A DNA stretch of 64,000 nucleotides from a phage: NCBI GenBank assembly GCA_037431425.1, contig GCA_037431425.1_4129.1. The stretch is one strand, 5' to 3'. The notes under the pieces were generated by a model that was not told the origin of the DNA, did no database searches, and worked only from the letters and a program-made list of their open reading frames with translations. Shown here piece by piece: positions 5,837 to 42,300 of this stretch (positions are counted from its first letter, which is position 1; each line of letters opens with the position of its first letter). Position numbers and translations under genes: made by a program.

Positions 5837-6109
5837 ATGCATTTTGAAAAATTCAACACAAGTCGTGACACACGCATTGATGCTCTTTATGAAACCCAAG
5901 ACTCAATTAGTATTCGTACACGTAGTGGTGATGTATATCATGACTGTACTATTGGTTGGGAACAGGGAAGAACACGTAGTGCAGAATTCGATAACTATCG
6001 CTTCTACCAAGGGGACATCACAATCTGGCCTGAAGACGTAGAAGATATTGCAATTGAAGATGAACATAAAGATGAATTTATCAAATTTAATCCCGAAACC
6101 GAATCATAA
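5837..6109 (+). CDS. hypothetical small protein
   Basis: Track ORF; SD aggag upstream. Confidence 0.55.
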   Translation: MHFEKFNTSRDTRIDALYETQDSISIRTRSGDVYHDCTIGWEQGRTRSAEFDNYRFYQGDITIWPEDVEDIAIEDEHKDEFIKFNPETES

Positions 6110-6114
6110 ATAAC

Positions 6115-6239
<125 letters not shown>

Positions 6240-6246
6240 CAAAAGA

Positions 6247-6320
6247 CGGGGTATAGCACAATTGGATAGTGCAAGAGAATTCTAATCTCTAGGTTGGGGG
6301 TTCAAGTCCCTCTACCTCGG
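6247..6320 (+). tRNA. tRNA-Arg (anticodon UCU)
   Basis: Hand-folded: acceptor CGGGGTA/TACCTCG (one GU), D-stem GCAC/GTGC, anticodon stem AGAGA/TCTCT loop ATTCTAA, T-loop TTCAAGT. Confidence 0.75.
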
Positions 6321-6344
6321 CCTACTTCAATTAAAGGTTAAACC

Positions 6345-6509
6345 ATGACGCATGAAGAATGGATGAATGACATTAATTTTAGATATGCAGGTATCGGTAA
6401 CTGGAGAAAGTATCATTGGGAAATCATATCAGACCCAGCAGAATACGATAAACTTATGAATCATGAAGTGTATCCGTGGTTCTTTATTGAAATAATGGTA
6501 CGATTATGA
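6345..6509 (+). CDS. small protein, MTHEEWMNDINFRY family, copy 1 (54 aa)
   Basis: Manually found; SD aaaggtta; ATGA overlap with copy 2; near-identical N-terminus across three tandem copies. Confidence 0.5.
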   Translation: MTHEEWMNDINFRYAGIGNWRKYHWEIISDPAEYDKLMNHEVYPWFFIEIMVRL

Positions 6510-6666
6510 CACATGAAGAATGGATGAATGACATTAATTTTAGATATTCGGGTATCGGTAAATGGCTAAAGTATCATTGGGAATTCATTTCAGAGCCACA
6601 TCTGTATGATAAACTTATCAACGATTCTGCATATAAAATGTACTTAATTGAACTACTGGTACGAAC

Positions 6667-6670
<4 letters not shown>
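6506..6670 (+). CDS. small protein, MTHEEWMNDINFRY family, copy 2 (54 aa)
   Basis: Tandem paralog; ATGA overlaps on both sides. Confidence 0.5.
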
Positions 6671-6839
<169 letters not shown>

Positions 6840-6843
6840 AATC

Positions 6844-7284
<441 letters not shown>

Positions 7285-7312
7285 GTATCTTAACAACAGA
7301 AGGTATATTGAA

Positions 7313-7552
7313 ATGGGTAAGTATTTTGTGAGTTATAGTTATAATGTATCACGAAAGATTCCACGCGGTGACGGAATGGGATGGTCTTATGATGCATATA
7401 CTTTAAATGAGTCATGTATCATCGAATTACAAGAAAAAGACCTTGACATTTTAAAAATCAAACAATATATTCTTGATGTTGAATTGGCACATCGTACTGA
7501 TACCTATCCAGATGTAAACAACATCAGCATCTTAGTACTAACCAAAGTATAA
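7313..7552 (+). CDS. hypothetical small protein
   Basis: Track ORF 7283..7552 starts with TTG inside the promoter; ATG at 7313 with SD agaaggta is preferred. Confidence 0.5.
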   Translation: MGKYFVSYSYNVSRKIPRGDGMGWSYDAYTLNESCIIELQEKDLDILKIKQYILDVELAHRTDTYPDVNNISILVLTKV

Positions 7553-7622
7553 GATAAAAAGAACTTTACTAAATAATTCCACTGGAGATTAATATGTTTA
7601 AAGATGAACGTCCAGATTTGTA

Positions 7623-7661
<39 letters not shown>

Positions 7662-7667
7662 GAATTC

Positions 7668-8002
7668 CACAATCAGACGTATATGGTGTAAGTTACGTCG
7701 ATGCTATCCAGAACAAGATCTCTGGTACTCTAGGAAGTGGTGAATGTTAACCTAGACGGGTTTGATAATTGGACGATAGGCAATTATTACTTGACTAGCA
7801 GGTTGAAACTAGAGGTGACAGTCCTTCACCAAACTGGAAAGCCGGATGGACTTTTATTTAAAAGGGTAAGGCGTGGAAATATGTTTACTGTAGTTGCTTT
7901 TAGTAGCCTGTACGCCCCACGTCAAGGTAGTCGAAAGGCAAGTTAAAACGGGTGGTTATAAAGCTGAATTAACAGCGGCGTTTAAAAGCGTCACCATCCA
8001 TT
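7668..8002 (+). ncRNA. candidate structured non-coding transcript (or small basic protein)
   Basis: Promoter 7633..7661 upstream, T8 run at the end; locally GC-richer; track ORF 7737..7946 inside has a GTG start and unconvincing composition. Confidence 0.3.
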
Positions 8003-8023
8003 TTTTTAATTAAAGTTGGCTAT

Positions 8024-8390
<367 letters not shown>

Positions 8391-8401
<11 letters not shown>

Positions 8402-8420
8402 TATTCAGTACTGATATAAT
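8391..8420 (+). promoter_or_regulatory. sigma70-type promoter (TGGACA-N18-TATAAT) upstream of tRNA-Ser(GCU)
   Basis: CAGTACTG then TATAAT, 7 nt before the tRNA 5' end. Confidence 0.55.
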
Positions 8421-8426
8421 TAATTT

Positions 8427-8513
<87 letters not shown>

Positions 8514-8525
8514 TAAATTGTTCCA

Positions 8526-8612
<87 letters not shown>

Positions 8613-8662
8613 CTGATATTGTTATTATATGAGTTCTAACGATAATGAAACACTAGGAACAT

Positions 8663-8833
<171 letters not shown>

Positions 8834-8857
8834 ACGAAATTACAATAGGAAATTAAA

Positions 8858-9043
8858 ATGCAACTTTTAATTCTTTCAATATTGTATATTATTATAATGG
8901 TTCCGATATCAATACGTTTAATTACAGTTGAACGATTTTTATCGAAACATGGAAATAGATCTATGATATTTGTACCAATCGGGTTGATATTGTTTGGTAT
9001 ATTTTCATTTATAATGGGAATTAACGCTACATTCATTTCATAG
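8858..9043 (+). CDS. hypothetical small membrane protein
   Basis: Track ORF; hydrophobic; agga upstream; immediately after the tRNA cluster. Confidence 0.45.
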   Translation: MQLLILSILYIIIMVPISIRLITVERFLSKHGNRSMIFVPIGLILFGIFSFIMGINATFIS

Positions 9044-9052
9044 GAAACAAAT

Positions 9053-9310
<258 letters not shown>

Positions 9311-9412
9311 ATAAAAAGAACGAAAAGTAGACGGTCGTATTCAGTACTGAATCACCAGGGGAGGTTGTGATTCCCGATTCAGTAGCTTAAAAGCAGACCC
9401 GTATGTGCCTAA

Positions 9413-9465
<53 letters not shown>

Positions 9466-9466
9466 T

Positions 9467-9512
<46 letters not shown>

Positions 9513-9513
9513 T

Positions 9514-9647
<134 letters not shown>

Positions 9648-9649
9648 TA

Positions 9650-9833
<184 letters not shown>

Positions 9834-9913
9834 TAAATAATACAGTAAGATGGCCTCCCCTCCATATCATGAGAGTATAGAGACTTGTTGGTTATCTTAC
9901 TTTTAAACAAACT

Positions 9914-9987
9914 GCCTCAATAGCAAAATTGGTAATGCACACGTTTTGTAAGCGTGAGATTTTTCCGTTCGAGTCGGAATTGGGGCA
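9914..9987 (+). tRNA. tRNA-Thr (anticodon UGU), tentative
   Basis: Hand-folded: acceptor GCCTCAA/TTGGGGC (one GU), anticodon stem CACGT/GCGTG loop TTTGTAA, T-arm TTCCG-TTCGAGT-CGGAA; D-arm and variable loop slightly irregular. Confidence 0.55.
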
Positions 9988-10004
9988 CAAAATAAAGGCA
10001 CACT

Positions 10005-11854: not shown

Positions 11855-12259
11855 ATGTTGAAAATTCCACAACAGGCATTATCTATACTAATTGAAAATG
11901 GTGTAATATTTTCTGAAGGATGTAGTTCATTCTATACATGTGATGTGGACCAGTACACATTTGAATACCGTTCATTTAAAAATACATTGAGTGTTTCGTG
12001 TGAAGCTTCTGACAACATTGTACTTGTTGTTTCTTTCTATGGTGTACCAAAATTCTTCATTGATATATATTATGATTCTTTTAAGATACAAACATACGAC
12101 CATTTTCTTGGTGAAGTGCTCTTGCAAATGCCAATTGAACATGTTACTATAAATGAAGATATGTTCTTTCAGCTATCTACGGTATATGATATGTGTGGTT
12201 TGACATTTGACAACATTAATGGTATTTTTGAAATTGCCAGAACCCTACGAGGAAGATGA
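11855..12259 (+). CDS. hypothetical protein with C-terminal EDMFFQLSTV module
   Basis: Track ORF. Confidence 0.55.
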   Translation: MLKIPQQALSILIENGVIFSEGCSSFYTCDVDQYTFEYRSFKNTLSVSCEASDNIVLVVSFYGVPKFFIDIYYDSFKIQTYDHFLGEVLLQMPIEHVTINEDMFFQLSTVYDMCGLTFDNINGIFEIARTLRGR

Positions 12260-12260
12260 T

Positions 12261-12668
12261 ATGGTCAAAATTTTAAGTGACAATACAGTTGATATTGTTA
12301 TTGATGTACTTGAAAACAGTAATACATTTGAGAAGAAACACAGTACTGTATACTTCGGTAAAGATTGTTGGCTGAACTATACATCTGATAGTTCATTTAT
12401 AATTCATGTTGAAAAGGGTGATATTGGATTAACGATACATGCTTCCTATAATAAAACAATCACTGTTATTGCCAACAAGCCAAGTTCTTCTGATTTCTGG
12501 GATATTATTGATGATTGTGATCATTTCATGTCAACATTCTATAAAACAGAAGAAGAACATTTCATGGATAGTACTGTTCGAGAATTACAAATTCCATTTA
12601 AATTAATGAAAGCGGCAAGGGATTTTATTTCAAAATACAAAAAAACAGGAGTATGTGATGCAATTTAA
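12261..12668 (+). CDS. hypothetical protein with C-terminal EEEHFMDSTV module
   Basis: Track ORF 12207..12668; ATG 12261 after gaggaag is preferred. Confidence 0.5.
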   Translation: MVKILSDNTVDIVIDVLENSNTFEKKHSTVYFGKDCWLNYTSDSSFIIHVEKGDIGLTIHASYNKTITVIANKPSSSDFWDIIDDCDHFMSTFYKTEEEHFMDSTVRELQIPFKLMKAARDFISKYKKTGVCDAI

Positions 12669-20760: not shown

Positions 20761-21726
20761 GTGAAAAAACTTGATTTGAATACAATTGCAGATGAAGTTC
20801 TGGATGAATGCTTTGGTAATGAAGAAGTGAATACGCTGGATGCGTTAGAACCAGTTCAAGAAAAAGATAACATTGACGAGAAAAATAATGGTAATTTCAA
20901 GTTTAATATTAGTCTTAAGCGACCAGCAAATGTAACAAATGAAGATATTATTCGTGATATTCAAGCAGGTATTAACGTAAAGAAAAATACTGAACTATTA
21001 GTTCGTTATAATTACGGTTTGATTATTGATGTTGCAAGTAAATGCACGTGTTATATTCCATTTGAAGATAAGATTTCATATGGCATTGAGGGATTCATGC
21101 GAGCATTAAAAACATTTGACCTTAGTAAGAATGTAAAGTTCGCTACGTATGCATCGTCAAGTATCTATATGACTGTATACAATGAAAGCTCAGATGCTAA
21201 TCATCTGGTCCACTTCCCTCGTTACATGAGTGTTAATAAGATACAAGTGAAACGCTTCTGTCATAATTATGAGCGTCAGCATGGTTGTCGTCCTACACCT
21301 GAAATTATTTCTGAAGAGACTGGTATTGAAATCCAGCACGTTAAGAATTGTTTATTATTCCAAAGTGAATATACTTCACTGGATGCACCATTGGATGGTG
21401 TTTCTGATGGGACGATGAGTGATATTCTGCATTCATCTGAAGGTGATTATAATCTTAATGTTGACAGTATTCGTGCACCGTTGCGTTATACCATCAACGA
21501 ACTAACTAATGAGTTGAGTGCTAAGGAATGTGAGATTATTCAACGTGTTCATGGATTAGGTGAATTTAATCCTGAAACACTACGTGAAATTGCTGATAGT
21601 GGTTTTATTGATGACAATGGTAAGTGTGTAAAATCCAGATCTTCGGTTCATCGTAAATACAGTGATGCTCTTAAGAAACTCAAGAAATTAGTGCTCGCTA
21701 AAGGGTACGAATACGAAGATTTCTAA
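20761..21726 (+). CDS. sigma70-family RNA polymerase sigma factor
   Basis: Region-2-like stretch LLVRYNYGLIIDVASK...GIEGFMRALKTFD...KFATYASSSI and region-4-like HTH near the C-terminus (ECEIIQRVHGL...TLREIA...KYSDALKKLKK); GTG start with strong SD aggagaag; terminator follows. Confidence 0.75.
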   Translation: MKKLDLNTIADEVLDECFGNEEVNTLDALEPVQEKDNIDEKNNGNFKFNISLKRPANVTNEDIIRDIQAGINVKKNTELLVRYNYGLIIDVASKCTCYIPFEDKISYGIEGFMRALKTFDLSKNVKFATYASSSIYMTVYNESSDANHLVHFPRYMSVNKIQVKRFCHNYERQHGCRPTPEIISEETGIEIQHVKNCLLFQSEYTSLDAPLDGVSDGTMSDILHSSEGDYNLNVDSIRAPLRYTINELTNELSAKECEIIQRVHGLGEFNPETLREIADSGFIDDNGKCVKSRSSVHRKYSDALKKLKKLVLAKGYEYEDF

Positions 21727-21733
21727 ATTGTAA

Positions 21734-21762
21734 AGGTTGGCATATGCCAACCTTTTTTATTG
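21734..21762 (+). terminator. rho-independent terminator after the sigma factor gene
   Basis: AAGGTTGGCATATGCCAACCTT followed by T-run. Confidence 0.65.
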
Positions 21763-22314
21763 GGACACAGAATAAATATATGATATAATAATTATGTACA
21801 ATCCTGTTGAATGCAGAAATGCATATAAATTAGAACCTGATCCTATCGAAAACGTAGATGGCAGATGAGCAGTTCAGCAGTGCGATGAGCAGAAGAAACC
21901 CGTCAGAAGTGGGCATAGTTTGAACCCCTCACGGCAATGCGGCTCAATAAAGAACTCCGATAAGCATACAGAGAGTTCCTAGATAGACATATAAGGAATC
22001 ACACCTTACCAGATTTGCTAAGGGAGTCTTGAAATAAGACAGCTTGAGCTTTGATTGTATAGAGTTTCAAGTGAGTGCTGGGATGAAAAGACCAGTGACC
22101 GTTGCATATGACCGTGATAGGGAGAAACAGAGCAACCCGCTTCCGTTTGTGATTGATCATTTTAACAATATAGATCCGTCCAAAATTCACGATACAATAA
22201 TATCCGATGCCATCAGCGTCAAGAAGAGACTTAATTGTCTCTTTTTTATTACTTTCATTCCCCTGTGGGGGGATGAAATAGTCCTCAACAAATCCCGTCA
22301 AGTATTAAAAGTCC

Positions 22315-22343
22315 TAGACAGTTATGAAACATTCGCGTATAAT
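22315..22343 (+). promoter_or_regulatory. sigma70-type promoter (TAGACA-N17-TATAAT)
   Basis: Precedes ORF 22408. Confidence 0.5.
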
Positions 22344-22407
22344 ACGTAGTATTAGAAGCGAACAGACATCTCGAAGAGATGGATGATTAACTATTAAGGA
22401 ATATCCA

Positions 22408-22617
22408 ATGAATTCAATCATATTTTTAGTAGTAGCTTTCTCTGTTAATTCCGGTGTACAAATAACCCCAATGAATTCCATGAATCAATGTATAGCAGTT
22501 CGTGATAGTACATACGAACAAGTAAACAAAAATATTAGAATGACAGTTAGTAAAGAACAAATGTGGTGTTACAATAGTAATACTAACGCAAAGCTTATTG
22601 TAGGACAAACTCAATGA
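22408..22617 (+). CDS. putative small secreted protein
   Basis: Track ORF downstream of promoter 22315..22343; signal-peptide-like N-terminus. Confidence 0.5.
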   Translation: MNSIIFLVVAFSVNSGVQITPMNSMNQCIAVRDSTYEQVNKNIRMTVSKEQMWCYNSNTNAKLIVGQTQ

Positions 22618-22845: not shown

Positions 22846-23634
22846 ATGTGCACTATAGATGAACTGATTCGACGGAATTCAAAATATTACAAACCATCAG
22901 AAATTGTAGATAACATTACTAAATCAGAGTTCGGACCAAATACACGAAAACTAATTCATGTAATGTTACGTGATGGCTTTAAATGTGATTGTTGTGGTGA
23001 ATCCAATGTGGTATTCACTTTACATAAGCACAGTACTAAAGAACGTTATAAATTCAGACCTTATGTACTTAAAGGGAAACGCCTTGTACGCATGACGTTA
23101 GACCATAATGTACTGGACTGTCTTCAGGGCGGTAATGATAAAGAAAACATGACTGCACTGTGTGAGGATTGCAATGCATTACGCCAGCATAAATTTGCTG
23201 AGTACAGCGAGTTTAAGTTCTGGTATCATAATGCAGATCGTTCTATTGAACCTGACGTTAACTACTGCTTTATCGAGTACATTAAGAATGCAAAAGATAC
23301 ATACATTCTTAAATCTATGGAACCAATTACCGTGTTTCCAATGAACCTATACACTACATTAAAGAATAGTTTTATGGTAGGTGATATTGATGCATTCAAG
23401 TATTTTGACAAAGGTGCAAAACATTTTGAAGTTCAATGTCTTAGTACTGCACTATGTGAACTTATTAAAATTTACATAAAAGATTATTTGGGTATTGACA
23501 ATGTACGCGTACCAGAGTATACTTTTTCTATTGATTTCGATTGTGAATCAATCAAAGAGTTTGGGATTCTTTTCAATAAACAAATAGAACTTGCAATTCA
23601 AAACGAAATCAAGTACTATAATACTAACATTTAA
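22846..23634 (+). CDS. HNH endonuclease-like protein
   Basis: Track ORF; CxxC pair and LDHNVLDCLQGGNDKENMTALCEDCNALRQH fit the HNH motif. Confidence 0.6.
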   Translation: MCTIDELIRRNSKYYKPSEIVDNITKSEFGPNTRKLIHVMLRDGFKCDCCGESNVVFTLHKHSTKERYKFRPYVLKGKRLVRMTLDHNVLDCLQGGNDKENMTALCEDCNALRQHKFAEYSEFKFWYHNADRSIEPDVNYCFIEYIKNAKDTYILKSMEPITVFPMNLYTTLKNSFMVGDIDAFKYFDKGAKHFEVQCLSTALCELIKIYIKDYLGIDNVRVPEYTFSIDFDCESIKEFGILFNKQIELAIQNEIKYYNTNI

Positions 23635-41414: not shown

Positions 41415-41463
41415 AGCTAATACTCCCCAAAGATGGGGAGTATATATAATTAAAGGGATTTAT

Positions 41464-42300
41464 ATGAGTATTAAAAATAAATTAGATCAGTATTATACAA
41501 ATCCAGAGTATGCTAAAAAATGTTATACTAAATCATTAGAGTTTATTTCGTCTCGAATGGACATTAATTCATCTTATTATATGGAGCCTTGTGTTGGGAC
41601 TGGTTCGTTTTATCTACAGTTTCCTGAATCCCGTCGATTTGGGTGTGACATTGATCCGGTACATCTTGATGAAAATGTTATCCATTCCGATTTTTTACTT
41701 GAATTTGGTATCAATGCAAGAAGTAAAGGTGAACCAATACTTGTTATAAGTAATCCACCTTTTGGGAAAATTTCTTCTTTAGCCATTAAGTTTTTTAATA
41801 AATGTGCATCAATGCCTGAAGTGAAATATATTTGTTTTATTGTCCCTATGACATTTCGAAAAGCAGCAACACAAAATAAACTCAATGAGATGTTTCACCT
41901 GGTATTAGATGAAGATTCACCAAATGACGCTTTTATACTGCACGGAGAACCACATCATGTACCATGCGTATTTCAGATATGGGAACGTAGGGATACAGTT
42001 CGTGAGAAACATGAGATTAAGAACAAATCAGACTATTTCGACTATTGTACTAAGGAAGAGGCTGATGTTTTTATAAAACGTGTAGGAACCAAAGCAGGTG
42101 AGTATGCCGAGCCAGGGAAAGAACACAAAGATGCAAGTATGTACTACATTAAAACTAAGTATGTTGATGAAATCATTAAGGTTTTGAAAAGTAAAGATTA
42201 CCTTGATGAGATAAAACGTATACGTAAAACCACAGCAGGGGTATACTGTGTGTCCAAATCTGAAATCGTTCTTAATATTGAAAAACGTTTGAATCTTTGA
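41464..42300 (+). CDS. N6-adenine DNA methyltransferase (NPPF-type)
   Basis: Track ORF 41398..42300 trimmed to ATG 41464 with SD aaaggga; motif I EPCVGTGSF and motif IV SNPPFGK. Confidence 0.7.
   Translation: MSIKNKLDQYYTNPEYAKKCYTKSLEFISSRMDINSSYYMEPCVGTGSFYLQFPESRRFGCDIDPVHLDENVIHSDFLLEFGINARSKGEPILVISNPPFGKISSLAIKFFNKCASMPEVKYICFIVPMTFRKAATQNKLNEMFHLVLDEDSPNDAFILHGEPHHVPCVFQIWERRDTVREKHEIKNKSDYFDYCTKEEADVFIKRVGTKAGEYAEPGKEHKDASMYYIKTKYVDEIIKVLKSKDYLDEIKRIRKTTAGVYCVSKSEIVLNIEKRLNL

What the first reader, a model, noticed from the sequence alone, without database searches (positions are those of the whole stretch)
21780..22345. GC-richer segment without a convincing ORF between the sigma factor gene and the next promoter
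After the sigma-factor terminator there is a -10-like TGATATAAT (21781), about 450 nt of locally G/C-richer sequence with only weak overlapping ORFs on both strands (22044..22349 +, 21999..22301 -), a hairpin AGAGACTTAATTGTCTCT plus T-run (22232-22256), and then promoter 22315..22343. It may be a non-coding RNA, a decayed gene remnant, or a small gene with an atypical start.
Basis: seen in the sequence. Interest (0 to 1): 0.4.

Follow-up and report, generated by a model that had tools for sequence, protein, structure and literature searches.

The report
Large structured RNA gene in jumbo phages
The "empty" GC-richer stretch after the phage sigma-factor gene is a gene for an intricately folded non-coding RNA of about 450-505 nucleotides, from a family I could not find described anywhere; giant Rak2/121Q-like phages carry 3-5 copies each, a few bacterial prophages and defence islands carry one, and its function is unknown.

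Summary
Window 21760-22302 (+) holds a self-contained transcription unit. It has an extended -10 promoter (TGATATAAT, 21781-21789), a body about 10 points richer in G+C than its flanks, an intrinsic terminator (22225-22247) and a very conserved 55-nt tail.

It is not coding. Both overlapping ORFs are broken by stops and frameshifts in every homolog outside the closest relatives.

It belongs to a multi-copy family. 73 jumbo-phage records match, with 3-5 copies per genome (one record is split into fragments). There are five copies in Enterobacterales chromosomes and about 30 in metagenomes.

An alignment of 26 members supports about 17 helices and a 7-bp pseudoknot. 90% of cells are paired against 39-44% in slid controls. 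57 of 100 pairs show compensatory changes. G-U pairs outnumber A-C about 2:1, which points to an RNA read from the + strand.

40 of 45 members carry their own TATAAT promoter. No Rfam 15 family matches and I found no paper describing it.

Function is unknown. My best inference (about 0.35) is an abundant, early-made, trans-acting scaffold or decoy RNA acting on a host component. Two direct repeats that change together suggest a conformational switch or two alternative 3' ends.

Verdict: a real, apparently new large structured RNA family.

The parts
21760..21789 (+). Promoter of the RNA gene: -35 TTGGGA (21760-21765), 18-nt spacer, extended -10 TGATATAAT (21781-21789). The inferred start is about 21796-21798.
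   Evidence: Consensus scan. 40 of 45 family members have TATAAT (at least 5/6) at the equivalent place, and 38 of those carry the TG extension. The start site is inferred, not mapped.
21797..22008 (+). 5' domain. Hairpin H1 with a GAAA loop (21811-21824). H2 (21837-47/21857-64, loop GAAAACGUA). H3 (21869-83). H4 (21886-90/21942-46) enclosing H5 (21900-03/21931-34) and a variable hairpin. H7 (21952-57/21973-78). H8 (21992-96/22004-08).
   Evidence: RNAalifold. Pair counts: H2 94.7%, H3 96%, H4 99%, H5 100%, H7 95.5% and H8 88% of cells paired, most with compensatory changes. H1 is only 63% paired because that region aligns poorly.
22017..22105 (+). Central domain, closed by the long-range helix H9 (22017-24 GCUAAGGG with 22099-105 CCGUUGC). 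It holds H10 (22026-30/22036-40), the long hairpin H11 (22043-52/22061-71) and H12 (22076-80/22093-97). It contains the near-invariant UAAGGGAG.
   Evidence: H11 is the most strongly covarying helix. H12 is 100% paired. H9 is 97% paired, but only one of its pairs covaries.
22054..22060 (+). Pseudoknot PK1, 5' strand: the apical loop of H11, AUUGUAU.
   Evidence: It pairs with 22192-22198. Cells are 98.9% paired and 4 of 7 pairs show compensatory changes. At least six sequence variants keep complementarity, including the divergent subfamily E.
22113..22191 (+). 3' domain. H13 (22113-17/22187-91) encloses two hairpins. H14 is GGGAG/CUUCC (22120-24/22140-44) with a conserved 15-nt loop, AAACAGAGCAACCCG. 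H15 (22147-49/22181-83) carries an optional module at its tip (22150-22180).
   Evidence: H13, H14 and H15 are 99-100% paired. H13 and H15 have several compensatory pairs.
22192..22198 (+). Pseudoknot PK1, 3' strand: AUACAAU.
22206..22223 (+). Hairpin H16 (GAUGC-CAUCA-GCGUC, 22206-22220), whose 3' arm runs into direct repeat R1, CGUCAAG (22217-22223).
   Evidence: 85.7% of cells are paired on alignment A5.
22225..22247 (+). Intrinsic terminator: stem AGAGAC/GUCUCU (22225-30/22237-42) and a U-run to 22247. It is an optional insert in the family.
   Evidence: Terminator scan. The stem sequence varies with compensatory changes in 5 of 6 pairs. It is absent from D-type paralogs and several subfamily-E members.
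22253..22278 (+). Conserved C/G hairpin H18: UUUCAUUCCCC-UGUG-GGGGGAUGAAA.
   Evidence: 87% paired, with U-G wobbles on the + strand. It is present in all complete members, including those without a terminator.
22279..22302 (+). Conserved 3' tail, UAGUCCUCAACAAAUCCCGUCAAG, ending in direct repeat R2, CGUCAAG (22296-22302).
   Evidence: R2 is identical to R1 over 6-8 nt in all 29 members examined. The two change together across the family: CGUCAAG, UCGUCAG, UCUUCAAG, CGACAA, ACGAAG. The 5' arm of H16 can pair with R2 as well as with R1, 83.5% against 85.7% of cells.
22044..22349 (+). Not a gene.
   Evidence: In 25 homologs the aligned stretch has 1-11 stops in the corresponding frame, and only 11 of the 25 stretches are a multiple of three long.
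21999..22301 (-). Not a gene.
   Evidence: The same test. The frame survives only in the closest relatives.

Best explanation
Window 21760-22302 (+) is a gene for a stable, highly structured, trans-acting non-coding RNA of a family I found described nowhere. I put this identity claim at about 0.9.

Shown directly:
- It has its own sigma-70-type extended -10 promoter.
- It has about 17 helices in three domains, locked together by a 7-bp loop-to-strand pseudoknot.
- It has an intrinsic terminator at 22225-22247, followed by a conserved hairpin and tail.
- Every Rak2/121Q-like jumbo phage genome holds 3-5 diverged paralogs at syntenic sites.

Inferred:
- Host RNA polymerase makes the RNA from the start of infection.
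- There are two isoforms: about 450 nt ending at the terminator, and about 505 nt by read-through to repeat R2.
- The 5' arm of hairpin H16 can pair with either of the two identical repeats R1 and R2. That gives a conformational switch, or two equivalent 3' ends.

Most likely mode of action (about 0.35, inferred): an abundant folded RNA that acts stoichiometrically on a host component, as a scaffold or decoy, during host take-over or in phage-defence conflicts. My reason is that single copies also work as portable accessory modules in prophages and a defence island, which carry no jumbo-phage proteins.
For: Family and conservation:
- blastn finds the element in 70-73 jumbo-phage records from nine host genera, 3-5 places per record.
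- ph0011 has four paralogs, each in a CDS-free gap.
- In genera outside Asteriusvirus, only the element part of a sigma-gene-plus-element query is detectable at the DNA level.

Not coding.

Structure:
- RNAalifold predicts 75 pairs, 43 with compensatory changes.
- For the curated structure, 90.1% of cells are paired against 39-44% when partners are slid.
- 57 of 100 pairs have double changes, against 13-24 in the slid controls.
- The covariation score is 0.376 against at most 0.089.
- The pseudoknot is 98.9% paired.
- An independent all-against-all column scan recovers the same helices and the pseudoknot.

Strand:
- 174 G-U cells against 78 A-C cells.
- Folding z-score is -3.7 on the + strand and -2.2 on the - strand.

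Expression signals: 40 of 45 members have a TATAAT promoter.

Portability:
- Full copies scoring 134-201 bits lie in an E. coli island next to a DuOB/DUF488/mSLOG candidate defence system.
- Others lie beside serine recombinases or CI-like repressors in Citrobacter, Serratia and an Enterobacteriaceae MAG.

Repeats.
Against: - There is no expression data for any member. The 5' and 3' ends are inferred from sequence signals only.
- The terminator lies upstream of the conserved tail, so the tail needs read-through to be part of the RNA. This is supported only indirectly: several relatives lack a terminator, and hairpin H18 has U-G wobbles.
- No partner is identified, and no protein gene is consistently adjacent. 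The scaffold or decoy mechanism is therefore an argument from context, not evidence.
- With fixed alignment columns, covariation for H16 and its alternative is weak.
- Bacterial copies are rare: 2 of 5426 E. coli genomes and 4 of about 185,000 species representatives.
Confidence: 0.8

Rival explanations
1. A new large ribozyme. The invariant junction nucleotides would form an active site, and the identical motifs R1 and R2 would be two processing sites (cleavage or ligation) recognised through the same guide strand, the 5' arm of H16.
For: - The RNA is large, has a pseudoknot, and about a quarter of its positions are invariant and concentrated in junctions and loops.
- R1 and R2 change in concert, and the H16 arm is complementary to both.
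- These phages encode an RNA repair and processing toolkit: RnlA ligase, polynucleotide kinase-phosphatase and CCA-adding enzyme.
Against: - No known ribozyme model matches, even at E <= 10.
- Several strongly promoted copies per genome fit a stoichiometric role better than a catalytic one.
- Nothing in the sequence shows cleavage.
Confidence: 0.1
2. An RNA that assembles with itself or with its paralogs into an RNA-only multimer, as ROOL and GOLLD do. The pseudoknot and/or the arm-R2 pairing would form between molecules.
For: - Covariation cannot tell intramolecular from intermolecular pairing.
- Paralogs within one genome carry different pseudoknot sequences: AUUGUAU, AUCGAAU, GUCAUAU.
- Like ROOL and GOLLD it is large, phage-associated and has no protein partner. 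Their RNA-only complexes are described in the abstract of bioRxiv 10.1101/2024.12.08.627333, listed.
Against: I noticed no obviously palindromic conserved loop, though I did not search for one systematically. There is no sequence or model similarity to ROOL or GOLLD. This is speculation from analogy.
Confidence: 0.1
3. A replication-origin transcript: a structured primer RNA, like ColE1 RNA II or the T4 oriF/oriG R-loop RNAs. It would stay hybridised near the C/G-rich hairpin and be cut at R2 to prime DNA synthesis. Islands and prophages would carry a copy so as to be co-amplified.
For: - There are 3-5 dispersed copies in a 350-kb genome with T4-like replication genes.
- Each has a promoter, about 500 nt of folded RNA, and a G-run/C-run close to the 3' end.
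- Copies in integrated elements would suit molecular parasitism.
Against: - The transcribed segment is GC-richer than its surroundings, not an AT-rich unwinding element.
- A terminator sits before the putative priming site.
- A structure this elaborate, with a pseudoknot, is not needed for R-loop priming.
- The cumulative GC skew shows no inflection here.
Confidence: 0.07
4. A cis-regulatory leader (riboswitch or attenuator) controlling the downstream genes by read-through of the terminator.
For: The arrangement is promoter, structured RNA, alternative pairings, terminator, then genes on the same strand at 22408 onward.
Against: - The downstream genes have their own 11/12 promoter at 22315-22343.
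- The syntenic copy between the endonuclease VII and baseplate genes faces genes on the opposite strand.
- Downstream genes differ at every copy.
- No riboswitch model matches.
Confidence: 0.03
5. A protein-coding gene (one of the two overlapping ORFs or a small atypical gene), or the decayed remnant of one.
For: ORFs of 100-101 aa are open in the window. Some records annotate short hypothetical proteins across the element.
Against: - The frames are broken in most homologs and indels are not in threes.
- The substitution pattern is compensatory pairing, not codon-like.
- A decaying remnant would not be the best-conserved DNA of its neighbourhood across genera.
Confidence: 0.02

Closest known systems
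GOLLD and ROOL RNAs (Rfam RF01998, RF03087)
   Same: Large (500-800 nt), ornate, protein-independent non-coding RNAs. They are often carried by phages or prophages, stand as their own transcription units, and have no known function. This description comes from my own knowledge plus the abstract listed.
   Different: There is no sequence or covariance-model similarity. The hosts differ: Enterobacterales and Xanthomonas phages here, against Firmicutes, Lactobacillales and environmental sources. This family is multi-copy per genome and has the R1/R2 repeats. Multimer formation is untested.
The four ncRNAs of Pseudomonas jumbo phage PA5oct (PMC7318152)
   Same: PA5oct is a related giant myovirus. 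It has four ORF-free transcribed regions annotated at 236-619 nt, and the paper reports two of them as highly transcribed throughout infection. ncRNA004 ends 23 nt after a similar C/G hairpin.
   Different: They are not detectably homologous. nhmmer finds nothing and the covariance model gives at most 6.8 bits. Two of them lie in the terminal repeat.
ColE1 RNA II and T4 origin transcripts
   Same: A folded RNA of about 500 nt made from its own promoter, with a G/C-rich element near the 3' end (my own knowledge).
   Different: There is no homology. A terminator precedes the tail, the region is GC-rich rather than easily unwound, and no origin evidence exists.
Protein-sequestering RNAs (6S RNA, CsrB/CsrC)
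   Same: Abundant, stand-alone, trans-acting RNAs that titrate a cellular protein. This is the mode of action I consider most likely here.
   Different: It has neither the open-promoter-mimic shape of 6S nor the repeated GGA hairpins of CsrB. Rfam models do not match. The partner is unknown.
phi29 packaging RNA (pRNA)
   Same: A phage-encoded structured RNA whose covarying loop pairings form between molecules (my own knowledge). The pseudoknot here could do the same.
   Different: pRNA is 174 nt, single-copy and tied to the packaging motor. This RNA also occurs in prophages and islands that lack such a motor.

Membership tests
Any Rfam 15 family (4227 covariance models) | A score at or above the family's gathering threshold | tested here: not met
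   In the whole window only six tRNAs pass. In 21700-22420 at E <= 10 the best hit is STnc390 on the sigma-gene terminator, 28.6 bits against a threshold of 50, and nothing falls on the RNA body. Subfamily E has no hit either.
Group I intron | A P3-P9 core with the P3/P7 pseudoknot, matched by RF00028, and insertion within a host gene with flanking exons | tested here: not met
   There is no RF00028 hit at E <= 10. The helix order differs: H9 and H13 are closed domains bridged by one loop-strand pseudoknot. The sigma gene upstream is complete and no interrupted gene is present.
RNase P RNA / tmRNA | A match to the RNase P or tmRNA covariance models or to ARAGORN; P4 pseudoknot or tRNA-like domain with a tag ORF | tested here: not met
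   No hits. Short resemblances to RNase P conserved regions that I recalled from memory were not supported by any model.
Small self-cleaving ribozymes (hammerhead, twister, pistol, hatchet, HDV-like) | The conserved catalytic core, matched by the Rfam models | tested here: not met
   No hit at E <= 10. The GAUGAG and GUC motifs are present, but the hammerhead core is incomplete.
GOLLD / ROOL | A match to RF01998 or RF03087 | tested here: not met
GOLLD / ROOL | Formation of RNA-only multimers | not testable with these tools
   This needs biophysics or cryo-EM.
PA5oct ncRNA001-004 | Sequence or structure homology to the RNA-seq-defined transcripts | tested here: not met
   nhmmer gives no hit for ncRNA002 and ncRNA004. 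Covariance model R1, run with filters off on all four loci, gives at most 6.8 bits, E > 3.
Independent bacterial-type RNA gene | Its own sigma-70 promoter, conserved across homologs | tested here: met
   40 of 45 members have TATAAT, 38 with the TG extension.
Independent bacterial-type RNA gene | An intrinsic terminator | tested here: met
   The stem covaries. It is absent from a minority of members.
Independent bacterial-type RNA gene | A detectable transcript | not testable with these tools
   I found no transcriptome of an Asteriusvirus or a relative carrying the element.
Structured RNA (general) | Compensatory base changes above controls | tested here: met
   57 of 100 pairs against 13-24 when slid, and 0 of 500 shuffles reach the observed covariation score.
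Type III toxin-antitoxin RNA (ToxI-like) | Tandem short repeats followed by a terminator and a toxin gene | tested here: not met
   The alignments show no tandem array, though I did not run the tandem-repeat finder. Downstream genes differ, or are convergent, at every copy.

The most novel reading that the evidence does not exclude
A new class of large functional RNA used by giant phages. It would be either a ribozyme that processes itself at the two co-varying motifs R1 and R2, or a self-assembling RNA machine or switch. It acts without a dedicated protein, and bacteria have captured it into defence islands and prophages as a counter-weapon.
Probability: 0.15. Interest if true: 0.9.

Novelty: categorically new. 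Interest (0 to 1): 0.75.

Why it matters
New large, intricately folded RNA classes are rare. Those found before (RNase P, group I and II introns, tmRNA, and more recently GOLLD, ROOL, OLE and the omega RNAs) each opened a field.

This family is large, has strong covariation including a pseudoknot, and comes in several paralogs in every member of a whole clade of 350-kb phages. Those phages infect E. coli, Klebsiella, Salmonella, Erwinia and other tractable hosts, and several are being considered for therapy. The question is therefore open to direct experiment.

The copies in a defence island and in prophage accessory regions hint at a role in phage-host or phage-phage conflict carried out by RNA alone.

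On the practical side, many deposited genomes annotate spurious "hypothetical proteins" across these loci. Those annotations should be replaced by an ncRNA feature.

Tried and rejected
1. Protein coding or gene remnant: rejected.

2. Known RNA families: the Rfam gathering and permissive scans of the window copy, a subfamily-E copy and PA5oct ncRNA004 found nothing relevant.

3. Homology to the PA5oct ncRNAs: nhmmer and the covariance model were negative. The similar terminal hairpin of ncRNA004 stays a lead only.

4. An rrn-type boxB-boxA antitermination signal in the tail: I recalled a resemblance to UGCUCUUUAACAA. But the CUCUU part is not conserved in the family, and the convergent copies have nothing downstream to antiterminate. 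Dropped.

5. An rRNA mimic or antisense:
- blastn-short against an E. coli rrn operon gave one 15-nt perfect complement to 16S 1486-1500, in one member only (L027). It is not conserved in the window copy or in most others, so it is probably chance.
- The near-invariant UAAGGGAG is Shine-Dalgarno-like, but no start codon follows it, and it is predicted to lie in helix H9.

6. Pairing of the tail with the 5' GAUGAG junction: RNAalifold proposed 3 invariant pairs, but variants of GAUGAG are not compensated. Not adopted.

7. A conserved neighbouring protein: there is none across the phage paralogs or the five bacterial loci.

8. Another copy in the window: none.

9. Pattern hits in an archaeal MAG (L038) and in metagenome locus L052 were chance matches.

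10. Literature: six full-text searches, plus reading the PA5oct, UE-S1, Sharanji and virus-RNA-screen papers, found no description. The supplement of the large virus-RNA screen (PMC10690425) is not held, so an unnamed prior listing cannot be excluded.

Full report
**What is in the sequence**

The window is part of an Asteriusvirus jumbo phage. It is 99.3% identical to Escherichia phage ph0011 over the region.

- The sigma-factor gene (20761-21726) ends with a strong terminator at 21732-21755.
- Next comes TTGGGA-18-TGATATAAT at 21760-21789.
- About 430 nt follow, with G+C of 0.41-0.435 against about 0.30-0.33 in the flanks.
- Then come a terminator-like hairpin at 22225-22242 with a T-run to 22247, a second hairpin at 22253-22278, and the next promoter at 22315-22343.

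**It is a repeated, widely conserved element**

blastn against about 50,700 phage records finds window 21798-22309 in 70-73 records. All are Rak2/121Q-like jumbo phages of Escherichia, Klebsiella, Salmonella, Erwinia, Yersinia, Pectobacterium, Cronobacter, Serratia and Xanthomonas. Each complete record has 3-5 places; one deposited as fragments has one per fragment.

In ph0011 I located all four copies, all on the + strand, each filling a CDS-free gap of about 700 bp:
- 314.8 kb, which is the window copy;
- 198.6 kb, 94% identical;
- 116.3 kb, 77% identical;
- 61.3 kb, about 83% identical in patches.

The copy after the sigma gene is syntenic in 35 Asteriusvirus records. In other genera the sigma gene is no longer detectable by blastn, but the element is. 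Another copy sits between the endonuclease VII and baseplate genes in four genera, facing genes on the opposite strand. The window holds only this one copy.

**It is not coding**

I examined the stretches aligned to the two ORFs in 25 homologs. All but the closest relatives have several stops in the corresponding frame, and many lengths are not multiples of three. Several careful annotations leave the locus empty. Others scatter short hypothetical proteins over it on either strand.

**It is a structured RNA read from the + strand**

Compensatory changes are visible by eye. One example is GAACUC/GAGUUC, which appears elsewhere as GAAGUA/UACUUC and as CAAGCG/CGCUUG.

- RNAalifold on 26 members predicts 75 pairs, 43 of them with double changes.
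- An all-against-all column scan of 46 members recovered the same helices. It also found a 7-bp pairing between the apical loop of hairpin H11 (22054-22060, AUUGUAU) and the strand after H13 (22192-22198, AUACAAU).
- That pairing is kept through at least six sequence variants, including a divergent subfamily.

For the curated structure of 100 pairs in 17 helices:

| Measure | Observed | Control |
|---|---|---|
| Cells forming standard pairs | 90.1% | 39-44% with the 3' partners slid 1-3 columns |
| Pairs with changes on both sides | 57 | 13-24 when slid |
| Covariation score | 0.376 | at most 0.089 when slid; reached by 0 of 500 shuffles |
| Pseudoknot cells paired | 98.9% | not applicable |

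Four of the seven pseudoknot pairs are compensatory.

G-U cells outnumber A-C cells 174 to 78. The + strand folds with z = -3.7, against -2.2 for the complement. Together with the promoter and terminator orientation, this fixes the + strand as the RNA.

Alignments are MAFFT-based. H1 and H16 align poorly and score lower.

**Expression signals are part of the family**

- 40 of 45 members have TATAAT (at least 5/6) upstream. 38 of them carry a TG extension, and most have a GGGACA or TTGGAA -35.
- Most members have a terminator hairpin whose stem covaries.
- The terminator is missing in one paralog type (ph0011 61 kb, 121Q) and in several metagenomic members.
- The following C/G hairpin and the 25-nt tail are always present.
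- H18 contains U-G wobbles on the + strand.

I therefore infer that the tail is RNA. I also infer two isoforms in the window copy, of about 450 and about 505 nt. No transcriptome exists for any phage carrying the element, so the ends are unverified.

**Two unexplained features**

First, the last 6-8 nt of the tail (R2, 22296-22302) are identical to the 3' arm of H16 plus its next 2-3 nt (R1, 22217-22223).
- The two change together across the family: CGUCAAG, UCGUCAG, UCUUCAAG (RaK2), CGACAA (a Serratia copy whose close relative has CGUCAA) and ACGAAG (subfamily E).
- The 5' arm of H16 can pair equally with R1 (85.7% of cells) or R2 (83.5%).
- With fixed columns the covariation statistics for either helix are weak.
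- This points to a conformational switch, to two equivalent 3' ends, or to a contact between molecules.

Second, a conserved module of about 45 nt appears at different places in different members. It has the stem GAUYGAUC/GAUCCGUC and the loop UUUUNUACAAUAUA. It sits at the tip of H10 in some members, of H15 in others, and of both in one paralog.

**Distribution outside jumbo phages**

- Two of 5426 complete E. coli genomes carry a full copy, 68% identical over 91% of the query and scoring 201 bits with my model.
- In strain LR-29-1 it lies in an island of about 10.7 kb between ffs and ybaA. The island holds an IS3-disrupted integrase, a serine recombinase and a DuOB/DUF488/mSLOG-DUF4326 cluster that matches the PADLOC candidate system PDC-M45.
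- A scan of one genome per species found four more copies: an Enterobacteriaceae MAG, Citrobacter amalonaticus and two Serratia. They sit next to large serine recombinases or CI-like repressors, which is the accessory region of prophages.
- No protein gene is shared by all loci.
- A metagenome scan added about 30 members. Five form subfamily E, which keeps only the 3' core of about 250 nt and has a different 5' domain. They lie on phage-like contigs.

**Comparison with what is known**

- No Rfam 15 model reaches threshold, and none matches the RNA body even at E <= 10.
- The helix topology fits neither group I introns nor RNase P nor tmRNA.
- Six literature searches and four papers read gave no description of the family.
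- PA5oct, a related jumbo phage, has four RNA-seq-defined ncRNAs, but they are not homologous by nhmmer or by my covariance model.
- The closest known kind is the group of large, phage-associated, protein-independent RNAs of unknown function (GOLLD, ROOL). This RNA is not a member of either.

**How it most likely works**

Shown: a stand-alone, promoter-driven, multi-domain RNA with a pseudoknot, in several diverged copies per phage, which is portable to prophages and islands.

Inferred:
- Host sigma-70 polymerase transcribes it early.
- Several strong promoters imply high abundance.
- It does not depend on jumbo-phage proteins.
- It acts in trans, since some copies face convergent genes and the genes downstream of the window copy have their own promoter.

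From this I favour a stoichiometric scaffold or decoy acting on a host component, in host take-over or in defence and counter-defence (about 0.35). The rivals are a new ribozyme that processes at R1 and R2 (about 0.1), a self-assembling RNA (about 0.1), an origin or primer transcript (about 0.07), a cis leader (about 0.03) and coding DNA (about 0.02). None of these can be settled by sequence analysis alone.

**Verdict**

The locus is a member of what appears to be a new family of large structured RNAs. That the RNA exists rests on strong comparative evidence. What it does is open.

Noticed in passing
L033 (E. coli LR-29-1, NZ_AP027515.1 3466976-3491514, reverse complement), element at 11959-12563: An island of about 10.7 kb between ffs and ybaA carries a full copy of the RNA gene. 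It also holds an IS3-disrupted tyrosine integrase, a serine recombinase and a DuOB / DUF488 / mSLOG-DUF4326 cluster that matches the PADLOC candidate defence system PDC-M45. The jumbo phage ph0011 also encodes a DUF4326 protein.
   Followed up: partly
window 6153-9988: A cluster of six phage tRNA genes on the + strand: Ser-TGA, Arg-TCT, Ser-GCT, Met-CAT, Asn-GTT and Thr-TGT.
   Followed up: no
window 22846-23634: A 262-aa ORF, annotated as an HNH endonuclease in ph0011, lies 0.5 kb downstream of the RNA gene. The other paralog loci I inspected do not have it as a neighbour.
   Followed up: partly
L027 (IMG/VR UViG 3300042256_000013), tail region; compare window 22248-22263: The segment UUACGACUUCACCCC, just before and inside the 5' arm of hairpin H18, is a perfect 15-nt complement of E. 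coli 16S rRNA 1486-1500. Related copies keep 13-14 pairs. The window copy does not, so this is probably chance.
   Followed up: partly
L051, L055, L062, L065, L066 (metagenome contigs): A divergent subfamily E shares only the 3' core of about 250 nt and has a different, itself conserved, 5' domain. One of its contigs (L065) encodes a tRNA-His guanylyltransferase, a phage-type RNA-handling gene.
   Followed up: partly
L040 987-1035 (PA5oct ncRNA004, record 246686-246734): The RNA-seq-defined 3' end of this unrelated ncRNA lies 23 nt after a C/G hairpin (AUUUCCUUCCC-AAAC-GGGGAGGAAAU). It falls right after the motif CAUAAG, which also occurs about 60 nt upstream. This echoes the hairpin-tail-repeat layout found here.
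   Followed up: partly
Downstream of many family members, e.g. L007 about 915-935 and L018 about 6085-6100: A short motif, (A)TGAATTGAG(T), recurs 20-40 nt after the end of the element in Mimasvirus, Eneladusvirus and metagenomic copies. It is absent from the window copy. Its meaning is unknown.
   Followed up: no
window 41420-41478 (- strand): A C/G hairpin, UACUCCCC-AUCUU-UGGGGAGUA, gave the second-best but non-significant hit of the covariance model (15.7 bits, E = 0.03). It looks like an ordinary terminator-type hairpin.
   Followed up: no
ph0011 copies at 314.8 kb and 198.6 kb (L001 6097-6620, L006 48577-49125): The sigma-adjacent copy and the endoVII-baseplate copy are 94% identical within ph0011. 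Most other Asteriusvirus genomes match the window copy at only about 84-85%. This suggests recent gene conversion between paralogs in this lineage.
   Followed up: no
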